A stretch of DNA of 64,000 nucleotides from Escherichia coli (GTDB lineage: Bacteria; Pseudomonadota; Gammaproteobacteria; Enterobacterales; Enterobacteriaceae). Location: NCBI RefSeq assembly GCF_011045215.1, contig NZ_CP049201.1. The stretch is one strand, 5' to 3'. The notes beneath the pieces are model-generated. The model was not told the origin of the DNA and made no database searches. It saw only the letters and a program-made list of their open reading frames with translations. How positions within the stretch are numbered: the first letter of the stretch is position 1; the number at the start of each line of letters is the position of its first letter. Below, one piece after another: positions 1-54,276 of the stretch. The position numbers and the translations under genes were made by a program.

Positions 1-1050
1 GTAAAGGTGACATTGCGGAATTCCACGTCGCCAGTCGCACGCTCGAGCACGCGCTTACCTTCGTCTTTCTCCTGCTCACTGTCCAGAATGGTAAACAGCG
101 TCTGACAAGCCGCCATACCGCGCTGGAACTGGGCGTTAACGTTGGTCAGCGATTTCAGCGGACGCATAAGTGCAATCATTGAAGAGAAAACAACGGTAAT
201 CGTACCGGCAGTCAGGCTATCCATGACACTTGGGAAGCTCGCCGCATACAGAACAAACGCCAGCGCCAAAGAGGCGATCAACTGAATGATCGGATCAGAG
301 ATGGAAGAGGCTGAAACCATTTTCATCCCCTGAAGACGCATTCGGTTACTGACTTTATCGAAGCGTTTCGTTTCCACTTCCTGACCACCGAAAATCAATA
401 CTTCTTTGTGGCCCTTCAGCATTTGTTCTGCGCTGGTGGTCACCTGCCCCATGGTGTTCTGCATGTTTTTACTGATGTTGCGAAAACGCTTCGATACAAC
501 GCGAATCGCAATCGAAACAATCGGTGCCAGCACAATCAAAATGATCGACAGTTGCCAACTGTAATAGAACATCATGATGAACAGGCCGATGATCGACGCA
601 CCTTCACGCACAACAGTAATCAGTGCGCCGGAAGAAGAAGAAGCAACCTGTTCGGAATCGTAGGTAATACGTGACAACAGCGTACCCGTTGACTGTTTGT
701 CAAAGAATGAAACTGGCATTCCCATCATGTGACCAAACAGGCGGCGACGCATGGTCATTACCACCTTTCCTGATACCCAGGAGATACAGTAGCTGGAGAC
801 ATAGCTGGTGATACCACGTAAAATCATCAGTCCGATCACCACCAGCGGCATCCACACCAGCACGGAGCGATCTGTTTTACCAAAGCCATCATCAAGAAGT
901 GGCTTAAGGAGCGATAACATGAAGGTATCGCTGGCTGCGTTGAGGATTAACGCTACGCCCGCCACGATCAGACCCGCTTTAAAAGGCGCAATGGTTGGCC
1001 ACAGTCGGCGGAACGTCTGCCACGTAGAGAGATCTTTGTCGTTATGCATT
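1..1050 (-). CDS. msbA: Lipid A export ABC transporter MsbA, N-terminal ~350 aa (gene runs off the window start)
   Basis: Reverse-strand translation from ATG at 1050 gives [27 protein letters not shown]..., matching MsbA; no ORF-table entry because the stop lies outside the window. Position matches K-12 synteny ycaI-msbA. Confidence 0.85.
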
Positions 1051-22795: not shown

Positions 22796-25240
22796 TTACA
22801 CCTTTTCAACCTGAACAAGGTTTGTATGTGACGGATTCCCCTTAGCGAGAGGAGACGGACGTTGAGTGGTCAGTACGTTAATACAACCACCCTTATCGAC
22901 ACGTTTTGCATCCGGGTCATACCAGGCACCTTCACCCAGTGCGACCACACCCGGCATCATTCGTGGCGTCACTTTCGCCTCAATATGAACCTCACCACGA
23001 TCGTTAAAGATCCTGACTTTATCGCCGTTGTGGATACCGCGTTTTTGGGCATCAAGCGGGTTGATCCACATTTCCTGACGGCAAGCCGCTTTCAGCACAT
23101 CAACGTTGCCGTAAGTTGAGTGAACGCGAGATTTATAGTGGAAACCTGTAAGCTGCAGCGGATACTGTTTGTTCAGCGGATCCTGATAACTTTCAAAGCC
23201 CGGCGTGTAGATCGGCAGTGGATCGATCACATCGCCTTCTGGCAATTCCCAGGTAGCGGCAATGTCAGCCAGCGCCTGCGAATAAATCTCAATTTTGCCC
23301 GATGGCGTAGTCAGTGGGTTTGCCTGCGGATCTTCACGGAAGGCTTTATAAGCAACGTGATGCCCTTGTGGGTCGCGCTTTTTAAAGATCCCCTGCTTGC
23401 GGAACTCTTCAAACGTTGGCAGTTCAGGAATCGCTTCCCGCGACTGGGCATACAGATGCCGCATCCACTCTTCCTGGGTACGGCCTTCAGTAAACTGTTG
23501 CTCAACGCCAAGACGTTTTGCCAGTTCGCTGGTCATTTCATAGATGGTCTTACATTCAAAGCGCGGTTTAATCACCTGATCGTTGAAAATCACGTAAGAC
23601 ATATTCCCGCAGGATGCATCCAGTGCAAAGTCCATCTGTTCGGAAGCGGTACAGTCAGGCAGCAGGATGTCAGCATATTTCGCCGATGAAGTCATGTGGC
23701 AGTCGATAACCACAATCAGCTCGCACTTCTTATCATCCTGGAGGATTTCATGGGTACGGTTGATTTCAGAATGCTGGTTAATCAGGCAGTTACCGGCATA
23801 GTTCCAGATCATTTTGATCGGCACATCCAGCTTATCTTTCCCGCGCACACCATCACGCAGCGCCGTCATTTCCGGGCCACGTTCAATGGCATCGGTCCAC
23901 ATAAACATAGAAATGCTGGTCTGGATCGGGTTTTCCAGAGTCGGCATACGGACAAACGGTAAGCTGTATGAACCTTCACGCGCGCCGCTGTTCCCTCCAT
24001 TAATACCAACGTTACCGGTCAGAATCGCCAGCATCGAGATAGCACGGGTTGCGATTTCACCGTTAGCGTGACGCTGCGGGCCCCATCCCTGGCTGATAAA
24101 CGCCGGTTTGGTACTGCCGATTTCACGAGCCAGTTTGATGATTTTGTCTGCCGGAACACCGGTGATTTGCGAGGCCCATTCCGGTGTTTTAGCCACGCCA
24201 TCTGGCCCTTCACCCAGAATATAAGCTTTATAGTGGCCATTTTTCGGCGCACTGGCTGGCAGGGTTTTCTCGTCATAGCCAACGCAATATTTATCGAGGA
24301 ATGCCTGATCCACCAGGTTTTCGGTGATCATGACATACGCCAGACCGTTAACCAGTGCGGCATCTGTTCCTGGACGAATAGGGATCCACTCATCTTCGCG
24401 CCCGGCACCGGTGTCGGTATAGCGCGGATCGATGATGATCATGCGGGCATTAGATTTCTGACGCGCCTGTTCAAGATAGTAAGTCACCCCACCGCCACTC
24501 ATTCGCGTTTCGCCAGGGTTATTACCAAACAGCACTACCAGCTTACTGTTTTCGATATCCGACGGGCTGTTGCCATCTGCCCAGCCGCCCTAGGTATAGT
24601 TCAGACCTTCCGCAATTTGCGCGGAAGAGTAGTCACCGTAATGGTTCAGATAACCGCCGCAGCAGTTCATCAGCCGCGCGACCAGGGTATTTCCCGGCGG
24701 CCAGGAGCGGGTCATGGTGCCACCCAGCGTACCGGTGCCATAGTTAAGATAGATGGATTCGTTGCCGTACTCTTTGATCAGGCGCTGCATATTGGTCGCG
24801 ATGATGTCGTAGGCTTCTTCCCAGCTAATGCGCTCGAATTTGCCTTCACCGCGCGCCCCGACTCGTTTCATCGGATATTTCAGGCGGTCCGGATTATAGA
24901 CACGGCGACGCATGGAACGCCCACGCAAACAGGCGCGAACCTGGTGCAGGCCGTCGTAATTGTCATCGCCGGTATTGTCCGTTTCGACATATTTGATTTC
25001 ACCGTCCACGACGTGCATACGTAGCGGGCAGCGACTACCACAGTTAACTGTACAGGCGCTCCAGATAACCTTTTCGTCTGATTTTGTTGGAATGGCGCTA
25101 TCGACAGCGTGCGCAATCCGACTAAAAGGTAATGTTAATGCGCTGCTGGCCATTGCCAGGCCGCCGATCGCTGTCGTTTTTACCAAACCACGGCGACTCA
25201 CCTCAGCAGCCAATACCGCATCAGGGATTTTCGTTTTCAT
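22796..25240 (-). pseudogene. dmsA: DMSO reductase catalytic subunit dmsA interrupted by a single in-frame TAG codon at 24590..24592
   Basis: ORF 24590..25240 encodes the DmsA N-terminus with the twin-arginine signal (SRRGLVKTTAIGG) and ends ...AEGLNYT-stop. ORF 22796..24535 continues in the same frame (25240 and 24535 differ by 705 nt); the 18 codons in between read GGWADGNSPSDIENSKLV, so the reading frame is otherwise intact. Confidence 0.85.
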
Positions 25241-25478
25241 AATGGCTCACTCAAGCTTGCTCACGATTGATTCCAGTAACAAACCGTATTGTGTAATTAT
25301 TTCTATAGCAGATCGCTATATAGGCTTGTATACATCGAATAATTTGAAAATCAAAGAGATAGGTAGATTTTCACTCGAAAGTAGTATTACGTGTAAGTGA
25401 GGAGTAATTATTGTTCGGTATCAAAGGGAGACAAAAAAAGCGCCCGCAGGCGCTTTTTAGATTCAGAAAAATTAGGTA

Positions 25479-40106: not shown

Positions 40107-40194
40107 GGTGAGGTGTCCGAGTGGCTGAAGGAGCACGCCTGGAAAGTGTGTATACGGCAACGTATCGGGGGTTCGAATCCCCCCCTCACCGCCA
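40107..40194 (+). tRNA. serW: tRNA-Ser (GGA anticodon, serW-type), 88 nt with long variable arm
   Basis: GGTGAGGTGTCCGAGTGGCTGAAGGAGCACGCCTGGAAAGTGTGTATACGGCAACGTATCGGGGGTTCGAATCCCCCCCTCACCGCCA read directly; coordinates anchored to ORF 40121, which starts at tRNA position 15. Confidence 0.9.
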
Positions 40195-44245: not shown

Positions 44246-45064
44246 TTAGCGCATGCTCTCCAGCAGCGTTTCTGCCATCACCCACAATGCGCGATTGAGC
44301 TTAATGTCCGTGTCGATGCTGTGAATGGCACGGGTGTGGATACGTTTTCCTTTAGCGCTGCGACCGGAAATTCCGCCTTTCAGCATATTCTCCTGAATGG
44401 TCTGATAAGCACTCCACAGGTCCTTACCGTAATCCTCCCTGCGTCGTGGTGTCAGAATGTCGGCGGTGGTGACGGGCTGATGTTCGTCACCATAACGGTA
44501 AGTCAGTGCCGCCTGTGCCAGCGCCTGGTGTGCCGGTGGCGGCAGAATCAGCGACTGCATGGCATCACGCTTTTCCTCAATCCGGTCAAAAACGCCCACC
44601 ACTTCGTAAGCCCCTTCAATAACTTTCTCCACCACGTCTCCCCGGTGCGGAACACGCACCTCTCCCAGAGACTGACCGCAGACGCACCCGTTCTGACAAA
44701 CGAATCTGAAGTAACCCGGCAGCATCTGGTAGCTGGAGGTACCGTCATGGGAATTGAGCAGGATGATTTCCGGGACATGCTGTCCGTTTATCTCTCCGGC
44801 CCGCCGCAGACGCAGCATGTGTTTGGTATACCCCCGGCGGCCCGGGTCACGTACGCGGGTCTGGCAGGCGAAGAAGGGCTGAAAGCCCTCCCGCTGCAGA
44901 CTTTCCAGCACGGTGATGGTGGGGATATACGTATAGCGTTCACTGCGGGAGGTATGCCGGTCTTCCCCAAAAATACCGGGTACATAGTGCATCAGCTCTT
45001 CATGTGTCAGCGGACGGTCACGGCGTATCTGGTTCGCATAACCAAAACGACTTGCTAATCGCAT
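44246..45064 (-). CDS. DUF932-domain protein (YfjQ/YafZ family)
   Basis: 272-aa ORF MRLASRFGYANQIRRDRPLTHEELMHYVPGIFGEDRHTSRSERYTYIPT... Confidence 0.75.
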   Translation of the reverse strand: MRLASRFGYANQIRRDRPLTHEELMHYVPGIFGEDRHTSRSERYTYIPTITVLESLQREGFQPFFACQTRVRDPGRRGYTKHMLRLRRAGEINGQHVPEIILLNSHDGTSSYQMLPGYFRFVCQNGCVCGQSLGEVRVPHRGDVVEKVIEGAYEVVGVFDRIEEKRDAMQSLILPPPAHQALAQAALTYRYGDEHQPVTTADILTPRRREDYGKDLWSAYQTIQENMLKGGISGRSAKGKRIHTRAIHSIDTDIKLNRALWVMAETLLESMR

Positions 45065-45338
45065 GATCTGCTCCTTATGAATGATTAAGCGGTATAAATG
45101 AAAAAGCCGCAGCTCCCGGAGAAGACGCGGCCTGATGGATGATGTTTATTGTCTGAGGTACCCTTCACGGGCGGGCCACGCATTAAGCTGTTATGACAGC
45201 AACCGCCTGCCCGTATGAGAAAGATCCTTCAGCCAGGACATACTCTGTGTAACCCGGCATATCTGTTTTCTCCTGATAAATAAAAAGCCTCTGCCACGCG
45301 TTGTGACAGAGGCTGAAGCATGAAACTGACTTCAGGGA

Positions 45339-45794
45339 TCAGTTAACGTTTTTTCCGGAAACGGTAATTAGCAGTGGATGGTAGTCCTGGGGATCGAAAA
45401 CCGATAACGGCAGACTGACACGATGGCCGTTACTTTCTTCAGTTGCTTTAATGATTTCGGTTGTGGCGACATTTTCCACGCACTCCGTTTCCAGAAATGC
45501 GTCTGTGGTTCGCGTGGCATCACTGTCACCAAAGGCTTCCGTTTCCATTTTTCTGGTCACCAGCCTCTGACCATATTTGTCTTTGAGTTGCAGAGTGATG
45601 GTGAGGGGGCCAAATCCTTCTCCGTTTCCGCCATTATCCAGCCGGAACTGGTAAGCACAAATATTTCCCGGGAGCCATATCGTATCTGTATTGCGTATAC
45701 TGATGTAACGTTGATCCTGTGCCCGGAGTGGGGCAGACCACGTTAACCCCAGAATGACGCCGGTAATAATGCAGGTTTTGAACAGGTGAATCAT
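45339..45794 (-). CDS. Putative secreted/lipoprotein-like small protein (CP4-like module)
   Basis: 151-aa ORF with N-terminal signal peptide MIHLFKTCIITGVILGLTWSAPLRA. Confidence 0.45.
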   Translation of the reverse strand: MIHLFKTCIITGVILGLTWSAPLRAQDQRYISIRNTDTIWLPGNICAYQFRLDNGGNGEGFGPLTITLQLKDKYGQRLVTRKMETEAFGDSDATRTTDAFLETECVENVATTEIIKATEESNGHRVSLPLSVFDPQDYHPLLITVSGKNVN

Positions 45795-45869
45795 GGTATT
45801 TACCTCTCTGAGTCATGACGATGACACTGACAAATCAGGTGATAAAACGTAAAAGGTGCAGAATACTCG

Positions 45870-48392
45870 TTATGCCGGTAACTCCGGGGGTAATGCTTCT
45901 TCCAGCCGGTTAACCATATTGCCGAGATGGGATGCATCATATTCCATGACGGGGCGTTGCCTGATGATACTGACCACCAGTGGTTTGATTAACATATTGG
46001 TCGCGGCCCGTTGTTGTATACCGGCGGCGAAAATGATCTCCAGAGCATTCTGATCGATAACACGGGCCAGATTCGCGTTCAGATTTTCTGTTTCATGTCC
46101 GGTCAGCAGGAAACTGCCGGCAAGCCATGTCACCTGTTCCTGAATCATTGCCAGAATTTTGACGCGATCTTCTTCAACCAGCGCTCCGGCAATTTTTCCT
46201 GATACAGCGGAGGCAATCATTCCCCCCAGAACACCGCCAACCACACGCCCTGTCAGTGCACCAAATGGTCCCAGTGGACTGAACAGTATCCCGCCCGCCA
46301 CTGACCCGACAGCTCCACCTGCCACACCGGAAGATGCCACGGCAAGATTCCTGATGAACTGCGTACCGGAGATCCGTCCCCGCAACATTTTGATCATGTC
46401 AGGGCCGGTTGTGACAGCTACCAGTGCCAGAGATGTCACCAGCGTACCCTTCATCACTTTGTTCAGGGCACTGATATTTCCTGCACCGGTCCCCTTCTGA
46501 AGAGCCAGTCGGACAGTCGGGCTGGCAGTCGAAAAATCAATGTGCTTCAGCATACCCTGAACAACACTGAGCCGGTGGAGTTGCTGGGTTGTGACGTAGA
46601 CAGCCAGTGTGCGGGTGAAGGTTTTTCCTGCCTGGACAGCAGCTGTCTGCAGAGCAGCATCGCGATCGCCGGTGCTGAGCCAGAAGACCGATGCCGTCAG
46701 GGCAAAACTGATCCCTCCGGCCGCCAGACTGACAACCGAACCCTCGGCAATATCATAAGTGACCGATTCGATGGTCCCGAACCGGGTGATATTACGGGCC
46801 TGAGTATAAGTCAGATGTCCCCGACGAATCAGCCGGGACGCTTCTGCGGGATCGATTACACCGGGTACTTTACCTTCGCGGATCTTATTCCTCATGGTTT
46901 CAACAGCGCCGGCATACTGATCACGGGGGACTTCCAGTTGCATGGGGCCATTATTTCCCATGTAACGATACTGTCCGTTTTGTCCGTCGAATGCCGCACC
47001 GACGCTACGGGCTGCAGTTGAACAATATTTCGTCTGGATTTCTGTTCCGCTGACCAGTCTGTCTGCTCCATTTCTGGCATTATTATCACCGAGGATCCGT
47101 GCGTTTTTCAGACGGATTCTGTCGACAATATGGTTTCCCCGTTCAGCGGCAAACCCATGTCCCTGCCCTCCGGAAGCAAACATTTTCTCATTTGTACTCC
47201 AGGTTTCCGGCAGTTTCATGAGAATCAGACCATTCGCCGTTGCATCGGAAATAAAACTGTTGTAGGGGCGTTCATAAATTTCCTGACACAGTGTTTCTGT
47301 TTCGCGACAAAGAGAGGAGCAGTACCATTCCGGATCCGGCTTATGATTTTCCGGGGCATGATGTACTTCTGTCAGCCCGCAGGAGGCACAGACACGAAGC
47401 TCATCCACGTGATGGAATGATACAAAACGGCGACCTTCTGAAAAGGGATACCAGTCACCGCCGTCCAGGCAACGATCGAGAAAATCGTCATTCGCTTCCG
47501 GTGATAAATTCAGGCGGTTCCGGAAGAGTGTTTTCAGTTCATCAGGTGTGAATGACAGGTTCTCTTTCAACTGTTCGTTAAACCCTGCCATGTTTCTTTC
47601 ATACCAGGCATTGTTCAGTAACCAGTTTCCGTCTGCCAGTTCAAATTCCCTCAGCTCTCCCCGGGAAATCCGTTGAGAAATAAGCGTCAGCCAGATGCGC
47701 TCCGTCAGTGAGTCAGGAAGGCTGTAATCGTTTTGCAAACTGGTCAGCCACGATTTACTGTTGAGCACCGGTTGTTCTTCCAGTGTCTGGCTGATGGCAC
47801 AGGTCAGTTTTTTCAGCGCCTGGATTTGGCTGGCCGCCCATAGCAGCGTCACTAATGCAGCCAGCCAGTACAACAACCCGCCCCACCACATCAGTGACGG
47901 TGAAATATCGTACTGTAACGCGATCAATGGTGCGCATGCAGAACAAGCCATAAGGAAAAAGGCAGTATAAAAACAGCAGTAATATCCGTTAATTTCCTTG
48001 CTGATATCTTCTGGTGTGATCCCGTTCTGCTGAATGTTTTTGATCTGCAGGGGAACAGCCAGCAGACCACCGGCGAGAGCGGTGGTCAGAATAAATTTCA
48101 CGGAGTCAAAGGTGTGAGACTCCAGCGCAATATGTTTACCATCAAGTCCCCACATGAAGCTGATGATCATTCCGGCAATCGTCAGAAATACGCCTGCCAG
48201 CCAGCGAATATGGAACAACCGGGTTATGCGTTCGGTGATATAGCCAGCCAGTAAGGCCGGGCCGAACAGACACAGCAATATGAGCCCTGCCAGCGCAGAA
48301 GCCGTGCTGATTAATGCTCTGAACAAAAGGCGAAGAATGGCAAATCCTGCGATCAGCAGGATCAGCGCGCCGACTATCTGTAACATAGTCAC
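45870..48392 (-). CDS. yeeR: YeeR-like large inner membrane protein
   Basis: 840-aa ORF with multiple TM segments at both ends; located between the Ag43 gene and the DUF932/antirestriction genes as in CP4-44-type elements. Confidence 0.7.
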   Translation of the reverse strand: MTMLQIVGALILLIAGFAILRLLFRALISTASALAGLILLCLFGPALLAGYITERITRLFHIRWLAGVFLTIAGMIISFMWGLDGKHIALESHTFDSVKFILTTALAGGLLAVPLQIKNIQQNGITPEDISKEINGYYCCFYTAFFLMACSACAPLIALQYDISPSLMWWGGLLYWLAALVTLLWAASQIQALKKLTCAISQTLEEQPVLNSKSWLTSLQNDYSLPDSLTERIWLTLISQRISRGELREFELADGNWLLNNAWYERNMAGFNEQLKENLSFTPDELKTLFRNRLNLSPEANDDFLDRCLDGGDWYPFSEGRRFVSFHHVDELRVCASCGLTEVHHAPENHKPDPEWYCSSLCRETETLCQEIYERPYNSFISDATANGLILMKLPETWSTNEKMFASGGQGHGFAAERGNHIVDRIRLKNARILGDNNARNGADRLVSGTEIQTKYCSTAARSVGAAFDGQNGQYRYMGNNGPMQLEVPRDQYAGAVETMRNKIREGKVPGVIDPAEASRLIRRGHLTYTQARNITRFGTIESVTYDIAEGSVVSLAAGGISFALTASVFWLSTGDRDAALQTAAVQAGKTFTRTLAVYVTTQQLHRLSVVQGMLKHIDFSTASPTVRLALQKGTGAGNISALNKVMKGTLVTSLALVAVTTGPDMIKMLRGRISGTQFIRNLAVASSGVAGGAVGSVAGGILFSPLGPFGALTGRVVGGVLGGMIASAVSGKIAGALVEEDRVKILAMIQEQVTWLAGSFLLTGHETENLNANLARVIDQNALEIIFAAGIQQRAATNMLIKPLVVSIIRQRPVMEYDASHLGNMVNRLEEALPPELPA

Positions 48393-48506
48393 TCCGTGAT
48401 GAATATCATGTTATTGTTAATGCCAGCGAATGTGGCGTTGAATATCCGTTGCGCCGGTCCGGGTCCCGATCATGATGACCGGGACCACAGAGAGGCGATG
48501 GTTCTG

Positions 48507-51356
48507 TCAGAAGGTCACATTCAGCGTGGCCTGACCGTTATAGCCTTCGGCGCTGTTGCCGCTGACACTGTGGGCATAACCGGCCTGAACGCCCAGGGTG
48601 ATATTTTCCCGGACACGGGCTTCCAGTCCGGCCTGCAGGTCCAGTGACGTGCCATTCCGGGACGGTGAAAACGTCATGTTACTGCCGGCGGCGGCTGTAC
48701 CCATGCTCATGTCACCCCGGGAGCTGAAAGTGCGGATAACAGAAGGCTGTACCCACCAGTTCACCGGCAGTTCACTCACACGGTGTTTTGCACTGTCGCG
48801 CAGAGTGTCACGGGATGAGGTGCCTTCGCCAAAAGTCATATCGTTGTGGCTGCCCAGACGGAAGCCGGCACGCACATGTTGTGCACTGCCATGCCCGAAC
48901 TTCACATAACCGGCGTTATCCTGGCCGTCATCCAGGGAGAGCCCCTGCCAGGTGTACTGCAGTTGTGGCTCCAGCATCAGGTTGTCAGTGATACTGAAGG
49001 GCAGACCGGTTTCCAGTGAGCCCAGCCAGCCCCAGCCCCGGGCGCGGAAGTCGTTATTGTCCGATGACGCTTTCATGCTGTGGCGGGTTCCCTGGGCCAC
49101 AATGTCAGCCCACAGGCCGGAGGACGTGTGTACCAGATTCAGGTATCCGCCCAGGCTGCCGGCATCATCCCGGACCGTGCCGGCACGGGAGCCGTCATCA
49201 TCCTTAACATCAACGGAAGAATGGCCAGCAGCACCATACACTCCTGTCGTCAGTGACATACCGGCAACCTCTGTTCTCAGCAGGTCACCCTCCAGACGGA
49301 CGAGGCCATAGCTGCCGCTGCTTTCCGGCGTGGCCCCACGGGCAATACCACCGTTGTTATCGTGCCCGAGATGACCGCCCTGAATGCTGAGACGGACGCT
49401 GTTATTTTCACCGCTTACACCGGTCTGATGGCTGCGGGAACCTGCCAGAATCCGGTCATAGTCCATTGCCTGTGTCAGCATGGAGGCATACAGGGGGACT
49501 TCAGCACGATAAGCATTTTCACTGCGCAGGTACCAGTCTTCATCGCTGTCACGGTTCAGGGTGTAGTTAAAGGCGCCGGCCTGAAGCGGGCGACTCAGGG
49601 CAAACGCACCTTCTTCTGTGGTAGCACCATTCTGTGCATCCACAACCCGGATACCCTGTCCGGAGGTTGCCACCCCGAGGTTACTGTTTCCGACATTTGT
49701 AAACGCAAGCCAGGTTTTGCCGGTTGCCTGACCACCATTAATCACCAGCTGGTCAGAGGCATTACTGCCATCAAGGCTGACACGCATATTGATGGTGCCG
49801 CCCTGGCCGGTGAGGTTCGTGGTGGTTAGTTTATGGAACGTTACCGGGGAGTTACTTTTTGCAACAGCACGGCTCAGCGCGGCATCCGGTGTCGTCTGAT
49901 TATCAAAGTGAATCTCTCCTGCGTTAATAATATCGCCGGTACTGACCACATCACCATTCAGTACCATACTGGCGCCTTTACTGAGCTGTGTTCTGCCACT
50001 CAGACTTCCCCCGGCAGCCAGCGTCAGTGTTCCACGATGTCCGACAGTGGTGTTGCTGGCCAGTCCTCCGGCATTAACCGTAAAGCTGCCGCCATTTTCC
50101 AGCAGCAGGCCGCTGGCCTGACCGGATATGCCATCAATACTGAACTTACCGCTGGCATTGGTCCCCTCAACAGTGGCACCACTGTCTGCAATCAGGGCAC
50201 CACCGGATGTCATGGTGACATCTGTTGCCTTACCACCGGCAGACACTGCCAGGGTACCGCCGTCATCCACCAGTGTTTTCCAGGCTGAATGGCCCTCCAG
50301 TACATCCAGGCGACCGCCGGACTCCAGAACAACGCCGTCAGCCTTACCGTTTTCCACTGTGAAATTCCCCAGGCGGTTTGTGCCGGTGACAGTTGCAGCA
50401 GTACTGGTAACCAGTGCACCGCCCGTGTTCTGGGTGACTGCAGTGGCTTCCCCGCCGGCATGTACCCTCAGTTCACCGTTCTGATTTATGGTGGTGTTAC
50501 CGGCAGCGCCACCGGCCTTAACAACCTGCCAGCCCCCCTCGTTAATTACCGTGTTCAGCGCCAGTCCGTCCTTGTGCACATACTGGTAACCGCCATTCAG
50601 TGTGGTATTCAGGGCCCTTCCGTGTACCGACTGGTCACCACCTGCGTAAATGAGAGTGTCACGGGCTATCCCGGAAGATAAGATAATCTGCCGTCCATTT
50701 TTGTTGATGGTGGTGGATTCTGCTGTTCCCTGGACCTTCTGACCCGTGTACGAGTTGTCAGAATCCGGGCCGCCTTCTGCGCCGGTGTTGATGATGGTTC
50801 CTGTTGCCAGCCCGCCACTTTTAACGCTCTGGTAACCGTCGCGGTTGATAATTGTACCGGTGGCAACCCCGCCCTCATGAACCCACTGCTCGCCTCTGTT
50901 ATTCAGCGTGGTGTTCACCGCCAGCCCGTTCAGGCTCTGTCCCCCGCCGTCACGAATAACCGTATCACTGGCTGTTCCCCCCTCCAGCACGACCTGACGA
51001 CCATTTGTGGTGACAGTGGTGTTTCCGGCTATCCCGCCATTCTGTATCCATTGCCCACCGGTGTTTTCTTCACTGTCCGGCCCCAGTTCCAGCCCGGTAC
51101 TGATGGTCATTCCGTTGGCCGTACCGAGGACAATCTGGTTGTCATGATTTGTCAGTGTTCCGCCGCTCATGGTTTCTCCCGCCTGTACAACCGTGTCAGC
51201 AGCCAGTGCCGGGACTGACGTGACAGCAGCAAGAGACAGCGCAACCGCCACACCGGTGCGTTTTCCCCGTGAGCGGGCCAGTTCGGAGGCCACCACCAGG
51301 GTGCCCGTAATGTGATTCCATACCAGCCTGTAGCTGGTGTTCAGATGTCGTTTCAT
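48507..51356 (-). CDS. flu: Antigen 43-type self-associating autotransporter adhesin
   Basis: ORF 48507..51431; real start at the internal MKRHLNTSYRLVWNHITGTLVVASELARSRGKR (extended autotransporter signal peptide); passenger repeats; C-terminal beta-barrel ending ...GYNGQATLNVTF. Confidence 0.9.
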   Translation of the reverse strand: MKRHLNTSYRLVWNHITGTLVVASELARSRGKRTGVAVALSLAAVTSVPALAADTVVQAGETMSGGTLTNHDNQIVLGTANGMTISTGLELGPDSEENTGGQWIQNGGIAGNTTVTTNGRQVVLEGGTASDTVIRDGGGQSLNGLAVNTTLNNRGEQWVHEGGVATGTIINRDGYQSVKSGGLATGTIINTGAEGGPDSDNSYTGQKVQGTAESTTINKNGRQIILSSGIARDTLIYAGGDQSVHGRALNTTLNGGYQYVHKDGLALNTVINEGGWQVVKAGGAAGNTTINQNGELRVHAGGEATAVTQNTGGALVTSTAATVTGTNRLGNFTVENGKADGVVLESGGRLDVLEGHSAWKTLVDDGGTLAVSAGGKATDVTMTSGGALIADSGATVEGTNASGKFSIDGISGQASGLLLENGGSFTVNAGGLASNTTVGHRGTLTLAAGGSLSGRTQLSKGASMVLNGDVVSTGDIINAGEIHFDNQTTPDAALSRAVAKSNSPVTFHKLTTTNLTGQGGTINMRVSLDGSNASDQLVINGGQATGKTWLAFTNVGNSNLGVATSGQGIRVVDAQNGATTEEGAFALSRPLQAGAFNYTLNRDSDEDWYLRSENAYRAEVPLYASMLTQAMDYDRILAGSRSHQTGVSGENNSVRLSIQGGHLGHDNNGGIARGATPESSGSYGLVRLEGDLLRTEVAGMSLTTGVYGAAGHSSVDVKDDDGSRAGTVRDDAGSLGGYLNLVHTSSGLWADIVAQGTRHSMKASSDNNDFRARGWGWLGSLETGLPFSITDNLMLEPQLQYTWQGLSLDDGQDNAGYVKFGHGSAQHVRAGFRLGSHNDMTFGEGTSSRDTLRDSAKHRVSELPVNWWVQPSVIRTFSSRGDMSMGTAAAGSNMTFSPSRNGTSLDLQAGLEARVRENITLGVQAGYAHSVSGNSAEGYNGQATLNVTF

Positions 51357-51573
51357 CAGCTTTTCCTTACAGAGGGTGAATAAAAAAGCCGGTACCCACA
51401 AATGTGGATACCGGCAGGTACAAAACAGCATGGTCAGATAAAGTGGTTTTTCCCGGACATAAATGCTTCCCCTCTCTCATCCGCCAGAGAAGTATCAGTC
51501 CGTTGTGTGCAATTCCGTTCTGCATGATGAAGAGATTCAGCTGCCTTTTCGCAGGCCATTAACCACTACAAAC

Positions 51574-51609
51574 GATCGATACTAACGATCGATACCTGTT
51601 TTATCGATC
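51574..51609. promoter_or_regulatory. Ag43 phase-variation switch: three closely spaced GATC sites in the putative OxyR operator (approximate)
   Basis: aaacGATCgatactaacGATCgatacctgttttatcGATCgtttt lies ~220-250 bp upstream of the flu start codon. Confidence 0.75.
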
Positions 51610-51727
51610 GTTTTATTCTATTGATAGCAGGGCAGTCACGCAAGAGAAACAGGAGGGTATGAGGGGTTTGTATCATGTTTTCAGTTGGTTAACGCAATGT
51701 AATCAGGCATTTCCCCTGGCAGAGTGT

Positions 51728-52600
51728 TCAGAAGAAAATCCAGTTCCATACCGCACGGGCAACAGAGACCACCGTGTCACGAACAGCGCGCAGGGCCGTA
51801 CGGACAACAGAGGCAACACAGACGCTCTCCGCTGTGTCAAATATCCGGTCCACCGCACCGGTAAACTGTTCACGGGCCTGAGAGCGGACAGATTCCGTGC
51901 GCAGCTCGTCCTGCAGTCGGGTCATCAGGGGACTGGCGGCATGGTCGGGAAGCGCTGTCATGAGCGCACTGACCAGCGTATCCAGTTCCCAGCCGGTGCG
52001 GGCCGATACGGCCACAACCGGATGTGCGGGCCGGAACAGACGGAATACCGCCTCCGTTTTTTCGCGAATGTTCCGTGCCTGTGCGGGAGAGGGCTGAATG
52101 CCGGCCATATCCCATTCATGGCAGGGCTCCGTTTTGTCGGCCTGCGTCACCACAAACAGCACCTGCTGATGTCCCCGGTGCAGGATGTGTCGCCAGAAAT
52201 ACTCATCCACAGACAGGGCACGGTCATCGGCTTTAATCAGCCACAGTACCAGGTCAAGTTCAGGCAGAATGTCACGGTACAGGGCTTCATACTCTGCATC
52301 CCTGTCCCGGCTCTCGCCCACCCCGGGCAGGTCAGTGATAACCATGCTGTGACCGTGGCCACTCAGACGGAAGCGCTGCACTTCCCGGGTGCCGGCGTGA
52401 ACATCACTGACCGGGGTGACCTCCCCCTGAAACAGTGCATTACAGAGTGAGGATTTACCGGCCCCGCTTTTACCCATAATGCCAATCACGGGTTCGTGAC
52501 TGGTGAGTTTGCGCAGATGTTCCAGGATGTGACGGGAAAGTGAGTAAGGCAGGGAGGAGAGCGGTTTTTCAATTGCCTCAATGGCATCAGACGGATTCAT
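51728..52600 (-). CDS. yeeP: YeeP/YkfA/YfjP-family GTPase
   Basis: ORF 51728..52639; P-loop GKSGAGKSS and DLPG G-motifs; probable start MNPSDAIEAIEKPLS. Confidence 0.8.
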   Translation of the reverse strand: MNPSDAIEAIEKPLSSLPYSLSRHILEHLRKLTSHEPVIGIMGKSGAGKSSLCNALFQGEVTPVSDVHAGTREVQRFRLSGHGHSMVITDLPGVGESRDRDAEYEALYRDILPELDLVLWLIKADDRALSVDEYFWRHILHRGHQQVLFVVTQADKTEPCHEWDMAGIQPSPAQARNIREKTEAVFRLFRPAHPVVAVSARTGWELDTLVSALMTALPDHAASPLMTRLQDELRTESVRSQAREQFTGAVDRIFDTAESVCVASVVRTALRAVRDTVVSVARAVWNWIFF

Positions 52601-52930
52601 ACATGTATTCCCGGTGAAAAAAGACAAAACCCCGCGCACCGGAAAGGTGGCGGGGGATTCACGGAGATAATATCTGCCTGAAATTATTTAGGATGCAGGT
52701 ATCTTCAGATAATCATACCTCCAGAATTTTGTTCTTAATAGTTGAGTAGTGGTATTTGGTTTCCCTGAGAGAATATAAAGGTGAATCATACTGTATTGAG
52801 TTTGATTCTATTTGTACTGAGACAGGTATCTTCATGATTATAATCAAAAGTCGGGTGGATTGGTCTGGCGCTCATTATTTTTTCGAATAAACTCACTAAT
52901 TATTGTAACCATCCCAGAGGAGATGATTTT

Positions 52931-53251: not shown

Positions 53252-54276
53252 ATGTGTGTGATTCATAGACATCGTTTCAATTTTCTCAGCTCAAGTTCAA
53301 GCTTGTAATTCTGTTCCTGAATATGCTCCTTATTGGGCTGATAGCTTGCGTGAACGGCATCCGAGTATGGCGTTTTCTCAGCAAGTTCAAAGTAGCGCTC
53401 CATCGGCGTTTTACCGTTGTGAGCGCAATGAGGACGTTCCCAGTTATAGTAATGCTGCCATTCTGCCAGTCGCTCCTCCAAGTTATCAGTAGCGATATCT
53501 ACGGTAGCGTAAAACTCAGCTTTGTCTGTCTTTTGGGAGCGTTCAACTTTGCCATTAAGATGGGGTGATGCTGGTTTATTTGGACGAAACTTGATGCCGT
53601 ATTCTTTCAGTCTTTCCTGCACCTTAACGGCAAAAAACTCTCTTCCCCGGTCTGTCTGAAAGCGCTGAATCGGGAACGGCATTTCTTCAATAAAACAATC
53701 AATGAAATCCAGTGTGTTTGTAGTCGTGCGACGGGAATAGAGCCTCAGAACTCTGTAGCGAGTGCAATCATCAACAGATGTGTACTGATATAAGCCGGGG
53801 CCAATTTTACAGGTATCCATCTGAACCCAATCACCGGGAACAGGGCGTTCGTAGCGAATGAAATCAGCTTTACGCCGGAGTTTAACAACAGGTTTAACCT
53901 GATTCTGGCAAAGAACTTTGTGGATTGTTGCCATTGCAAGTGAGATTGAATGAAGTCGTTTTAACTCGCTTTGAATCCGTCTTGCACCCAGATTTCGCTG
54001 GGAACGTAACTCCAGAATCAGAGCGACTTCGCAAGTGCCGGTTTTCGTTGATGGCGAACGCTTAGGGCGACGGCTGTGGCTTTCCAGACCAGCGATGCCC
54101 TGAGCCAGATATCTGCGCCACCATTTACGCAATGTGGGGCGGGAAATACCGCAGCGACGGCATACGAACCCCGCGTCACCAGACGTTTCATAGAGTTTTA
54201 CCCACTGTAGCCGCTGCTGAATTTCCCTGTTCATAGTAAGGCATTATAGTGAAACGATGTCTATGAATCACACAAG
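53252..54276 (-). mobile_element. Compact ~1.0 kb insertion sequence with one DDE transposase gene and ~24-bp perfect terminal inverted repeats (tentatively IS481-like)
   Basis: Terminal repeats TGTGTGATTCATAGACATCGTTTC and its reverse complement flank the transposase ORF; family assignment is tentative. Confidence 0.75.
53263..54234 (-). CDS. DDE (rve-type) transposase
   Basis: 323-aa ORF with N-terminal HTH (CGISRPTLRKWWRRY) and an integrase-core-like central region. Confidence 0.85.
   Translation of the reverse strand: MNREIQQRLQWVKLYETSGDAGFVCRRCGISRPTLRKWWRRYLAQGIAGLESHSRRPKRSPSTKTGTCEVALILELRSQRNLGARRIQSELKRLHSISLAMATIHKVLCQNQVKPVVKLRRKADFIRYERPVPGDWVQMDTCKIGPGLYQYTSVDDCTRYRVLRLYSRRTTTNTLDFIDCFIEEMPFPIQRFQTDRGREFFAVKVQERLKEYGIKFRPNKPASPHLNGKVERSQKTDKAEFYATVDIATDNLEERLAEWQHYYNWERPHCAHNGKTPMERYFELAEKTPYSDAVHASYQPNKEHIQEQNYKLELELRKLKRCL

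What the first reader, a model, noticed from the sequence alone, without database searches (positions are those of the whole stretch)
48507..51620. Shorter Ag43 allele (949 aa) with an intact three-GATC phase-variation switch
The autotransporter is about 90 aa shorter than the K-12 Flu protein as I recall it, yet keeps the extended signal peptide and the beta-barrel. The upstream region has three GATC sites within ~36 bp, the signature of Dam/OxyR phase variation. Passenger-domain variants differ in aggregation and biofilm behaviour.
Basis: partly seen in the sequence, partly recalled or inferred. Interest (0 to 1): 0.4.

Follow-up and report, generated by a model that had tools for sequence, protein, structure and literature searches.

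The report
Ordinary Cah-type Ag43 adhesin gene
This is an intact copy of the well-studied E. coli self-sticking surface protein Cah (the common short form of antigen 43) with its usual methylation-controlled on/off switch, so it is real but ordinary.

Summary
Window 48507..51356 (minus strand) is an uninterrupted 949-aa autotransporter. Three GATC sites span exactly 36 bp (51609..51574) just downstream of a sigma-70 -10 box.

It is not an unusual "short" allele. 949 aa is the canonical length of Cah, the class C2 / subfamily II form of antigen 43. The NCBIfam Ag43/Cah model is 948 positions long and matches end to end. The exact protein is already in NCBI as WP_164475829.1, "calcium-binding autotransporter Cah". 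It is 97% identical to O157:H7 Cah, whose passenger structure is solved (7KOH). All 13 published self-association residues are conserved.

The 90-aa difference from K-12 Flu (1039 aa) comes from in-frame gaps at the bottom of the passenger, not a frameshift.

The GATC spacing and position match the K-12 agn43 Dam/OxyR switch, and 9 of 10 other alleles sampled keep all three sites. The leader is the known IsrC/IS102 RNA with its terminator hairpin. The gene heads the known agn43-yeeR-irmA operon, in an island at tRNA-Ser (serW).

Phase variation of this particular operator variant is inferred by homology and was not tested.

Verdict: already known, low interest.

The parts
48507..51356 (-). cah / agn43 coding sequence, 949 aa plus stop. 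Class C2 (subfamily II) Ag43.
   Evidence: uninterrupted ORF. NF033177 auto_Ag43 scores 1973 bits (cutoff 1200), covering 1-949 against 1-948/948; exact match to WP_164475829.1 'calcium-binding autotransporter Cah'; 97% aa identity to O157 Cah, 76% to K-12 Flu.
51201..51356 (-). Extended signal peptide (ESPR), residues 1-52, with predicted cleavage ALA|AD.
   Evidence: Pfam PF13018 ESPR covers residues 6-52. The alignment with K-12 Flu is near-invariant here.
49557..49859 (-). Autochaperone domain (AC_1), residues 500-600.
   Evidence: PF18883, 67 bits.
48582..49328 (-). Beta-barrel translocator, residues 677-925.
   Evidence: PF03797 Autotransporter, 68 bits; nearly identical to K-12 in this region.
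51364..51368 (-). Shine-Dalgarno AAGGA, 7 nt before the ATG.
   Evidence: Read directly. Invariant in the four-allele alignment.
51375..51611 (-). 5' leader RNA, Rfam IS102 (IsrC).
   Evidence: RF00124 scores 74.4 bits (gathering 46), model positions 1-206/206. [quoted passage not shown]
51388..51415 (-). Intrinsic-terminator-like hairpin inside the leader (12-bp stem, 8 G-C pairs, T6 tail), 31 nt before the start codon.
   Evidence: terminator scan; present in both the MFE and centroid folds; conserved in K-12, with the stem positions invariant.
51574..51609 (-). Three Dam sites: GATC-I 51609-51606, GATC-II 51590-51587, GATC-III 51577-51574.
   Evidence: The spacing is identical to K-12 flu and to 9 of 10 other alleles compared.
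51568..51625 (-). Region equivalent to the K-12 OxyR footprint (-16 to +42 if the TSS is the G of GATC-I).
   Evidence: 42 of 58 positions are identical to K-12, and all divergence lies between or after the GATC sites. The footprint limits come from my recollection of Wallecha et al. 2002; the paper was not readable here.
51615..51620 (-). -10 hexamer TAGAAT.
   Evidence: unchanged in all 12 sequences, counting C5.
51638..51643 (-). -35 hexamer TTGCGT, with a 17-nt spacer.
   Evidence: Read. Shared by all Cah-type regulatory regions; K-12 has TTGTCC. It matches the consensus at only 3 of 6 positions, so the scan did not list it.
45870..48392 (-). yeeR-like gene (840 aa from GTG; annotated as 838 aa elsewhere), second gene of the operon.
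   Evidence: the identical Logan contig carries PF27347 YeeR_C; same position in strain C5; the agn43-yeeR-irmA operon is described in PMC4807369.
45339..45794 (-). irmA (interleukin receptor mimic protein A), 151 aa, third gene of the operon.
   Evidence: PF18673 IrmA, 132 bits..
45286..45314 (-). Intrinsic terminator after irmA (12-bp stem plus T-run), the likely operon end.
   Evidence: No minus-strand terminator-like site was found between cah and yeeR or between yeeR and irmA.
51728..52639 (-). Upstream YeeP-like GTPase gene (context; a separate transcription unit).
   Evidence: MMR_HSR1 GTPase. Annotated 'GTPase family protein' upstream of cah/agn43 in every genome inspected.
40107..40194 (+). 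tRNA-Ser(GGA), serW. Boundary of the genomic island that carries the operon.
   Evidence: strain C5 has cydC-aat-infA-tRNA-Ser followed by the same island.

Best explanation
The locus is an intact cah gene, the class C2 (subfamily II, 'short passenger') variant of the E. coli self-associating autotransporter antigen 43. It is the first gene of a cah-yeeR-irmA operon on a horizontally acquired island at serW.

Protein (shown by homology). A 52-residue extended signal peptide directs Sec export. The C-terminal barrel (about residues 677-925) inserts in the outer membrane. The passenger, an L-shaped beta-helix, is displayed on the surface with the help of the autochaperone domain. Passengers on neighbouring cells pair head to tail through a double interface of polar residues. 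All 13 of these residues are conserved here, including T199 and T256, whose mutation abolishes aggregation in the EDL933 protein. The expected result is autoaggregation and biofilm formation.

Regulation (inferred by homology to K-12 agn43). Transcription starts at or next to GATC-I from a sigma-70 promoter (TTGCGT, 17 nt, TAGAAT). Reduced OxyR binds the unmethylated operator that covers the -10 box and all three GATC sites. Bound OxyR represses transcription and shields the sites from Dam (OFF). If Dam methylates the sites after replication, OxyR cannot bind and the operon is ON. This gives heritable, reversible phase variation.

A second, known layer is the roughly 235-nt IsrC/IS102 leader. 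Its terminator hairpin stops part of the transcripts before the coding region.
For: Family and length:
- NF033177 matches end to end at 1973 bits against a cutoff of 1200.
- Pfam finds ESPR, AIDA, AC_1 and Autotransporter.
- The exact protein is named Cah in NCBI and is listed under two accessions, QIF14215.1 and QIF14420.1.
- It has 30 differences in 949 residues from O157:H7 Cah, which has the same length.

Class:
- The best solved structure is 7KOH (Ag43 EDL933, class C2) at 1123 bits, ahead of 7KO9 (UTI89, C4) at 980 bits.
- C2 and C4 passengers are about 430 aa against about 500 aa for C1 and C3 (PMC6668479).
- All 13 interface residues are conserved.

Not a frameshift: the gaps against K-12 are in frame.

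Switch:
- The GATC spacing and position are identical to K-12, and the -10 box is invariant.
- A second strain with the same protein keeps all three sites despite 3 nearby substitutions.
- The regulatory region is found at 80% identity or more in 3466 of 5426 complete E. coli genomes.
- The Dam/OxyR mechanism is described.

Leader: Rfam IS102 scores 74 bits, and the hairpin appears.

Operon: gene order and terminator placement. Co-transcription and OxyR repression were shown in UPEC (PMC4807369).
Against: - No experiment on this allele or this operator variant was available to me.
- The Cah-type operator differs from K-12 in the 9 bp between GATC-I and GATC-II (ATATCTATTTT becomes ATAAAACAGGT). 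This lowers the match to the OxyR consensus in the K-12 register from 14/20 to 11/20, a score that occurs hundreds of times by chance in the window.
- The -35 hexamer matches the consensus at only 3 of 6 positions.
- The window carries two private-looking changes near GATC-III: GTTAGTATC and GTTTGTAG.
- No hemolysin-type calcium-binding motif (PS00330) is present, so 'calcium-binding' rests on the name alone.
- The residue aligned with the K-12 alpha/beta processing site (D551) is H483 here and R483 in O157, so processing cannot be inferred from K-12.
Confidence: 0.9

Rival explanations
1. The gene is an intact Cah, but the Cah-type operator is not a true bistable Dam/OxyR switch, or is a strongly biased one. 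OxyR would bind it weakly or in a different register, so expression would be mostly ON, or would be governed mainly by the leader terminator.
For: The promoter-proximal OxyR half-site is poorly conserved. The window scores 3/10 for that half-site and 11/20 overall in the K-12 register, against 14/20 for K-12. An alternative register starting at the -10 box scores 13/20. Only 42 of 58 positions in the footprint-equivalent region are identical to K-12. I could read no direct test of a Cah-type regulatory region.
Against: All three GATC sites and their spacing are kept in 10 of the 11 Cah-type and intermediate regulatory regions examined, the window's among them, although the flanking bases vary. 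That pattern suggests selection on the sites themselves. The distal half-site, which holds GATC-II and GATC-III, scores 8/10, the same as K-12 (my count on the sequences). OxyR represses agn43-irmA in three UPEC/ABU strains.
Confidence: 0.08
2. The 949-aa length is an artefact: a frameshift, an assembly collapse of passenger repeats, or a decaying pseudogene of a 1039-aa agn43.
For: Passenger repeats are prone to assembly error. Loss-of-function cah alleles are common in STEC, and one was seen here (ETEC1722, frameshifted).
Against: The ORF is uninterrupted and matches a 948-position family model end to end. Hundreds of complete genomes carry 2850-bp alleles annotated cah. An independent Logan contig is base-for-base identical over 45038..51437. 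A second strain encodes the identical protein. The crystal structure of the same-length EDL933 passenger exists.
Confidence: 0.01
3. The three-GATC cluster is a chance occurrence with no regulatory meaning.
For: The window holds four clusters of three GATC within 36 bp against about 1.5 expected. The others lie in coding sequence, including a transposase gene.
Against: This cluster is intergenic. It starts 6 nt after an invariant -10 hexamer. It aligns without gaps to the experimentally defined K-12 sites and is conserved across divergent alleles.
Confidence: 0.01

Closest known systems
Cah (calcium-binding antigen 43 homologue) of EHEC O157:H7 EDL933 (Z1211/Z1651); Ag43 class C2; passenger structure PDB 7KOH
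   Same: Same length (949 aa) and same domain order. 97% amino-acid identity and about 96.8% nucleotide identity. All 13 self-association interface residues are identical. Same type of regulatory region and leader. The upstream GTPase gene is the same. The protein carries two accessions (QIF14215.1, QIF14420.1), which I read as two copies in one genome, as in EDL933.
   Different: 30 amino-acid substitutions, 22 of them in residues 52-614, none at interface positions. The downstream genes differ: yeeR-irmA here, against a dynamin-family gene and an RdcB-family gene in O157. There are two base changes in the operator between and after GATC-II and GATC-III.
Ag43 / Flu of E. coli K-12 (class C1, 1039 aa) and its Dam/OxyR switch
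   Same: Same family, with a near-identical signal peptide, translocator and autochaperone end. Same -10 box, same three GATC sites at the same spacing, same leader terminator hairpin, and the same Shine-Dalgarno and start context.
   Different: 76% identity overall. K-12 has about 90 extra residues at the bottom of the passenger. The 9 bp between GATC-I and GATC-II differ. The -35 hexamer differs (TTGTCC against TTGCGT). The K-12 leader is about 31 nt shorter. K-12 yeeR is truncated and irmA is absent.
Ag43 of UPEC UTI89 (class C4; PDB 7KO9)
   Same: Also a short subfamily II passenger with the same elbow, bottom and autochaperone module. It gives a strong sequence match (980 bits).
   Different: It has a different stem (SL) subdomain. 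It self-associates through a single, weaker interface, with reduced aggregation. The window protein is clearly closer to the C2 prototype.
agn43-yeeR-irmA operon of UPEC (EC958, CFT073; Moriel et al. 2016)
   Same: Same three-gene order on an island next to a tRNA gene. An IrmA Pfam domain is present. A terminator is found only after irmA.
   Different: In the UPEC strains the first gene is a different Ag43 allele (Ag43b of CFT073 is class C3). Here it is a C2/Cah allele. That paper did not find irmA in its non-O157 EHEC collection.

Membership tests
Ag43/Cah family autotransporter adhesin (NCBIfam NF033177) | Full-length match to the equivalog model above its curated cutoff | tested here: met
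   1973 bits against a cutoff of 1200; protein 1-949 on profile 1-948/948.
Ag43/Cah family autotransporter adhesin (NCBIfam NF033177) | Type Va architecture: extended signal peptide, repeat-rich beta-helical passenger, autochaperone, C-terminal beta-barrel | tested here: met
   ESPR 6-52, AIDA x4, AC_1 500-600, Autotransporter 677-925; the passenger aligns over residues 52-614 to the solved Ag43 structures.
Ag43/Cah family autotransporter adhesin (NCBIfam NF033177) | Self-association interface residues needed for head-to-tail pairing (EDL933 numbering N29, N60, S78, D79, N96, T114, T133, S162, D181, T199, N216, T237, T256) | tested here: met
   all 13 are identical in the window protein (offset +52).
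Ag43/Cah family autotransporter adhesin (NCBIfam NF033177) | Autoaggregation, heat-extractable alpha domain and calcium binding (the phenotypes that gave Cah its name) | not testable with these tools
   No PS00330 calcium-binding motif was found in this protein or in K-12 Flu. The phenotypes need wet-lab assays.
Ag43 class C2 (subfamily II) | Short passenger of about 430 aa (EJ2-BL2 module) rather than about 500 aa | tested here: met
   Residues 53-483 make 431 aa. In-frame gaps of 72+8+13 aa against K-12 lie in the lower passenger. Class sizes come from PMC6668479 and PMC10058404.
Ag43 class C2 (subfamily II) | Stem (SL) subdomain of the C2 type, closest to the EDL933 prototype | tested here: met
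   7KOH (EDL933, C2) scores 1123 bits against 980 for 7KO9 (C4), 551 for 4KH3 and 502 for 7KOB (both C3). There are 22 differences in residues 52-614 against O157 Cah. No formal phylogeny against C5 or C6 prototypes was run.
agn43-type Dam/OxyR epigenetic phase-variation switch | Three GATC sites with the K-12 spacing, starting at the transcription start just downstream of the -10 box | tested here: met
   gap-free alignment to K-12, with site starts 19 and 13 bp apart and the first site 6 nt after TAGAAT. The 5' end of the Rfam IS102 match is at 51611. The TSS itself was not measured.
agn43-type Dam/OxyR epigenetic phase-variation switch | An OxyR binding site overlapping the GATC sites | tested here: inconclusive
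   42 of 58 positions are identical to the K-12 footprint-equivalent region. The consensus match is 11/20 in the K-12 register against 14/20 for K-12, and such scores are common by chance. The distal half-site is 8/10 in both.
agn43-type Dam/OxyR epigenetic phase-variation switch | Dam and OxyR encoded by the host; alternative methylated (ON) and unmethylated (OFF) states; heritable switching | not testable with these tools
   dam and oxyR lie outside the window, though they are core E. coli genes by established knowledge. Methylation state and switching need SMRT or nanopore data or reporter assays.
IsrC / IS102 leader RNA (Rfam RF00124) | Match to the covariance model above the gathering score, ending in the terminator hairpin upstream of flu | tested here: met
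   74.4 bits against 46, full model 1-206, window 51611..51375. The hairpin appears.
agn43-yeeR-irmA operon | Gene order Ag43, YeeR, IrmA on one strand with no internal terminator; co-transcription | tested here: met
   The only minus-strand terminators are in the leader and after irmA. Co-transcription itself was not testable here; it was shown in EC958.

The most novel reading that the evidence does not exclude
The Cah-type operator is present in thousands of E. coli genomes. Here it carries two extra private-looking changes around GATC-III. It has replaced the promoter-proximal OxyR half-site of K-12 and may therefore bind OxyR in a shifted register or with lower affinity. That would give a switch with a different ON/OFF bias or switching rate from the textbook K-12 agn43 switch. 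Because this operator also drives yeeR and irmA, the bias would set the fraction of cells that secrete an interleukin-receptor mimic.
Probability: 0.1. Interest if true: 0.3.

Novelty: already known. Interest (0 to 1): 0.07.

Why it matters
It matters little beyond correct annotation. The locus should be labelled cah (Ag43 class C2) with its IsrC leader, as the head of a cah-yeeR-irmA operon on a serW island.

Three practical points follow:
- The allele is intact, whereas cah is often inactivated in STEC. The strain is therefore predicted to be capable of strong, phase-variable autoaggregation.
- The protein carries two accessions (QIF14215.1, QIF14420.1), which I read as two identical copies in the source genome. 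Methylation or expression read-outs must then tell the two copies apart.
- 'Shorter than K-12' is not a sign of anything unusual. The K-12 long form is the minority architecture.

Tried and rejected
- Primary papers. I tried to read Wallecha 2002 (PMC135096), Kaminska 2010 (PMC2838033), Wallecha 2014 (PMC4135670) and Carter 2018 (PMC5734025). None is held. The K-12 footprint limits (-16 to +42) and the TSS at the G of GATC-I are therefore from my memory of the Wallecha 2002 abstract.
- OxyR consensus scoring. I scored the Toledano consensus along the regulatory regions. The scores of 11-14 out of 20 are not discriminating: the window alone has 486 sites at 11 or more and 28 at 13 or more. This neither proves nor disproves OxyR binding.
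- Promoter scan. The generic sigma-70 scan did not report the agn43 promoter because its -35 hexamer matches only 3 of 6 positions. The promoter was placed by alignment to K-12 instead.
- Calcium-binding motif. A PROSITE PS00330 search found no match in Cah or Flu.
- Exact nucleotide match. No exact match to the allele or its regulatory region exists in 5,426 complete RefSeq E. coli genomes. The best hits are 97.5% for the gene and 96.7% for the 91-bp regulatory piece. I considered that this might mean an unusual allele and rejected it: the differences are spread evenly in a mosaic pattern typical of agn43, and the exact protein is in NCBI and in two other assemblies.
- 974-aa ORF. The ORF from ATG 51431 was rejected as the gene start. 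It has no Shine-Dalgarno sequence, it reads through the leader terminator, and it is not conserved in K-12.
- Alignment error. In one search I gave wrong coordinates for strain C5, so that row of alignment A3 is meaningless.
- Structure prediction was not run, because a solved structure of a 96%-identical passenger exists.
Full report
**Observation.** The minus-strand ORF ending at 48507 is listed as 974 aa from an ATG at 51431. The biologically sensible start is the ATG at 51356:
- It is preceded by AAGGA at the right distance.
- It begins MKRHLNTSYRLVWNH..., the conserved extended signal peptide.
- It is the start annotated in every 2850-bp RefSeq homologue inspected.

From there the gene is 2850 nt = 949 codons plus one stop. 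The 25-codon upstream extension reads through a terminator hairpin in the leader and is not conserved in K-12, so it is an artefact of mechanical ORF calling.

K-12 flu (strain XL1-Blue) is 3120 nt = 1039 aa, so "about 90 aa shorter" is exact.

**Is the GATC cluster more than chance?** Not in isolation. The window has 239 GATC sites, no more than shuffles give. It has four clusters of three within 36 bp, where random placement gives about 1.5 (P about 0.08). One of the others lies inside an IS3-family transposase gene.

The significance comes from homology. The intergenic region aligns to the K-12 agn43 regulatory region with no gaps from the -10 hexamer through GATC-III. TAGAAT is invariant and all three GATC sites fall in the same columns.

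I also compared 10 other alleles: O157, C5, Z1323CEC0014, 746, ETEC1722, a Nissle derivative, SCU-387, DC71, EC27 and SW070917 (C5, because I gave wrong C5 coordinates). Nine of them keep all three sites at the same spacing, although the bases between the sites vary. Only Z1323CEC0014 has lost GATC-III.

**What the protein is.**
- NCBIfam's equivalog model for "Ag43/Cah family autotransporter adhesin" matches at 1973 bits (cutoff 1200), covering residues 1-949 on profile positions 1-948 of 948. The family model itself has the "short" length.
- Pfam finds the extended signal peptide, four AIDA repeat stretches, the type 1 autochaperone and the beta-barrel.
- The exact sequence is already in NCBI as WP_164475829.1, "calcium-binding autotransporter Cah". 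It also carries two GenBank protein accessions, QIF14215.1 and QIF14420.1, and the longest contig on record is 5.41 Mb. I read this as two copies in one genome, which recalls the two identical cah copies of EDL933.
- It differs from O157:H7 Cah at 30 of 949 residues and is 76% identical to K-12 Flu.

**The length difference.** In the four-way alignment K-12 carries extra blocks of 72, 8 and 13 residues, plus single-residue differences, netting 90. All lie between the elbow of the passenger and the autochaperone domain, and all are in frame.

This is the known split between subfamily I (classes C1 and C3, passengers of about 500 aa) and subfamily II (C2 and C4, later also C5 and C6, about 430 aa) (PMC6668479; PMC10058404). 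By the 2023 census, subfamily II classes make up about 56% of Ag43 sequences in Escherichia genomes. The K-12 length is therefore the minority form.

**Class and mechanism of adhesion.** The best solved relative is 7KOH, the EDL933 passenger (class C2), at 1123 bits over residues 52-614. It scores ahead of UTI89 (C4, 980 bits) and the CFT073 C3 proteins.

Vo et al. showed that Ag43-EDL933 pairs head to tail through a double interface of 24 hydrogen bonds, and that T199G plus T256G abolishes aggregation. With the +52 offset, all 13 listed interface residues are identical in the window protein. None of the 22 passenger substitutions falls on them. I therefore expect a strong autoaggregation phenotype like that of EDL933 Cah. 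This is inference from sequence.

**Regulation.** The promoter is TTGCGT (51643-51638), a 17-nt spacer, and TAGAAT (51620-51615). GATC-I starts 6 nt after the -10 hexamer.

From my recollection of Wallecha et al. 2002, which I could not retrieve, K-12 transcription starts at the G of the upstream GATC, and OxyR(C199S) protects -16 to +42. Transferred by alignment, that is window 51625..51568, which contains all three sites. 42 of the 58 positions are identical to K-12.

The general mechanism is documented in papers I could read:
- OxyR binds the unmethylated operator, represses transcription and blocks Dam.
- Methylation blocks OxyR binding.
- Replication reopens the competition between the two.

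The weak point is the 9 bp between GATC-I and GATC-II, which differ from K-12. This drops the consensus match of the promoter-proximal half-site: 11/20 overall against 14/20 for K-12 in the same register. Such scores are common by chance, so motif scoring is uninformative. OxyR binding to the Cah-type operator remains an inference from conserved position and conserved GATC sites. This operator type is widespread: 3466 of 5426 complete genomes have a match at 80% identity or more to the 91-bp piece. It also precedes a 1039-aa agn43 in strain SCU-387, so operator type and passenger length are not linked.

**Leader.** Rfam IS102 (the IsrC RNA) matches 51611..51375 on the gene strand over its full length, at 74 bits against a gathering score of 46. 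It ends in a 12-bp G+C-rich hairpin with a T-run (51415..51388), 31 nt before the start codon. The hairpin is conserved in K-12 and present in both the MFE and centroid folds.

**Context.**
- Downstream on the same strand lie a yeeR-like gene (45870..48392; YeeR_C domain on the identical Logan contig) and irmA (45339..45794; Pfam IrmA, 132 bits).
- The only minus-strand terminator-like sites are the leader hairpin and one just after irmA, at 45314..45286.
- This is the agn43-yeeR-irmA operon, shown to be co-transcribed and OxyR-repressed in UPEC (PMC4807369).
- Upstream is the usual YeeP-like GTPase gene.
- The whole block sits in an island that begins right after tRNA-Ser(GGA) at 40107-40194, next to cydDC-aat-infA, which identifies it as serW. 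Bovine strain C5 has the same layout at 96.5% identity.
- O157 Cah islands have different genes downstream of cah.

**How unusual is this allele?** No complete RefSeq E. coli genome has the gene above 97.5% nucleotide identity. However, the roughly 3% divergence from three comparators is spread along the gene, with short patches that favour one or another comparator. That mosaic pattern is expected for agn43. The identical protein occurs in a second assembly with 6 synonymous changes and an intact switch, and a Logan contig is identical to window 45038..51437. It is one more natural C2 allele.

**Verdict.** The feature is Cah, class C2 Ag43, with the standard three-GATC operator and the IsrC leader, heading a cah-yeeR-irmA operon on a serW island. 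Everything here is already described. The only untested point is the quantitative behaviour of the Cah-type operator. Novelty: already known. Interest: low.

Noticed in passing
window 51357-51431 (-): Mechanical ORF calling extends the gene by 25 codons to an ATG at 51431, giving 974 aa. The extension reads through the leader terminator hairpin, has no Shine-Dalgarno sequence and is not conserved in K-12, so it is spurious.
   Followed up: yes
window 51375-51611 (-): The 5' leader is the Rfam IS102/IsrC RNA, with a strong intrinsic-terminator hairpin (51415-51388) just before the start codon.
   Followed up: yes
window 45339-48392 (-): A yeeR-like gene (840 aa) and irmA (interleukin receptor mimic, 151 aa) follow cah with no terminator between them. 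This is a C2/Cah allele heading the agn43-yeeR-irmA operon described in UPEC. O157 cah islands carry other genes at this position.
   Followed up: partly
window 40107-40194 (+): tRNA-Ser(GGA) next to cydDC-aat-infA, which identifies it as serW. It marks the island boundary. By correspondence with strain C5, the island carries a CP4-44-like module (DUF4942, CbtA/YeeU toxin-antitoxin, RadC/JAB, antirestriction and DUF932 genes) between the tRNA and irmA.
   Followed up: partly
window 25331-25465 (+): Rfam STnc130 enterobacterial sRNA, 140 bits, full length, in the core-genome part of the window.
   Followed up: no
window 276-296; 23210-23228; 60148-60176: Three other clusters of three GATC within 36 bp. 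The last lies inside an IS3-family transposase gene (orfA/orfB region). They serve as chance controls for the 'three GATC' signature.
   Followed up: yes
window 53263-54234 (-): An intact IS481-family transposase gene lies between the GTPase gene and the more distal island genes (a 371-aa hypothetical protein, an EAL-domain protein at 56798-57730, an AraC-type regulator at 57834-58475). IS3 and IS21 (IstB) fragments lie further on.
   Followed up: partly
L003 (E. coli Z1323CEC0014) about 2760-2790; L008 (ETEC1722): The closest coding allele has lost GATC-III (ATCGATCG has become ATCTATCG). The ETEC1722 cah is annotated as frameshifted. Natural decay of the switch or the gene therefore occurs, and the window copy has neither defect.
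   Followed up: partly
L010 (E. coli SCU-387) against the window regulatory region: The Cah-type regulatory region (GATCGATAAAACAGGTATCGATC) also precedes a 1039-aa agn43. SW070917 has an intermediate operator. Operator type and passenger length therefore assort independently, which is consistent with recombination.
   Followed up: partly
window protein residue 483 (codon at about 49908-49910, -): H483 (R483 in O157 Cah and in Z1323; H in C5) aligns with D551 of the K-12 D551/P552 alpha/beta processing site. The processing site is not conserved between classes. The passenger RGD motif of K-12 (residue 208) is also absent here.
   Followed up: partly
Protein accessions QIF14215.1 and QIF14420.1: The identical 949-aa protein carries two GenBank accessions, and the longest contig on record is 5.41 Mb. 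I read this as a second copy of cah elsewhere in the source chromosome, as in EDL933. Only one copy lies in the window.
   Followed up: no
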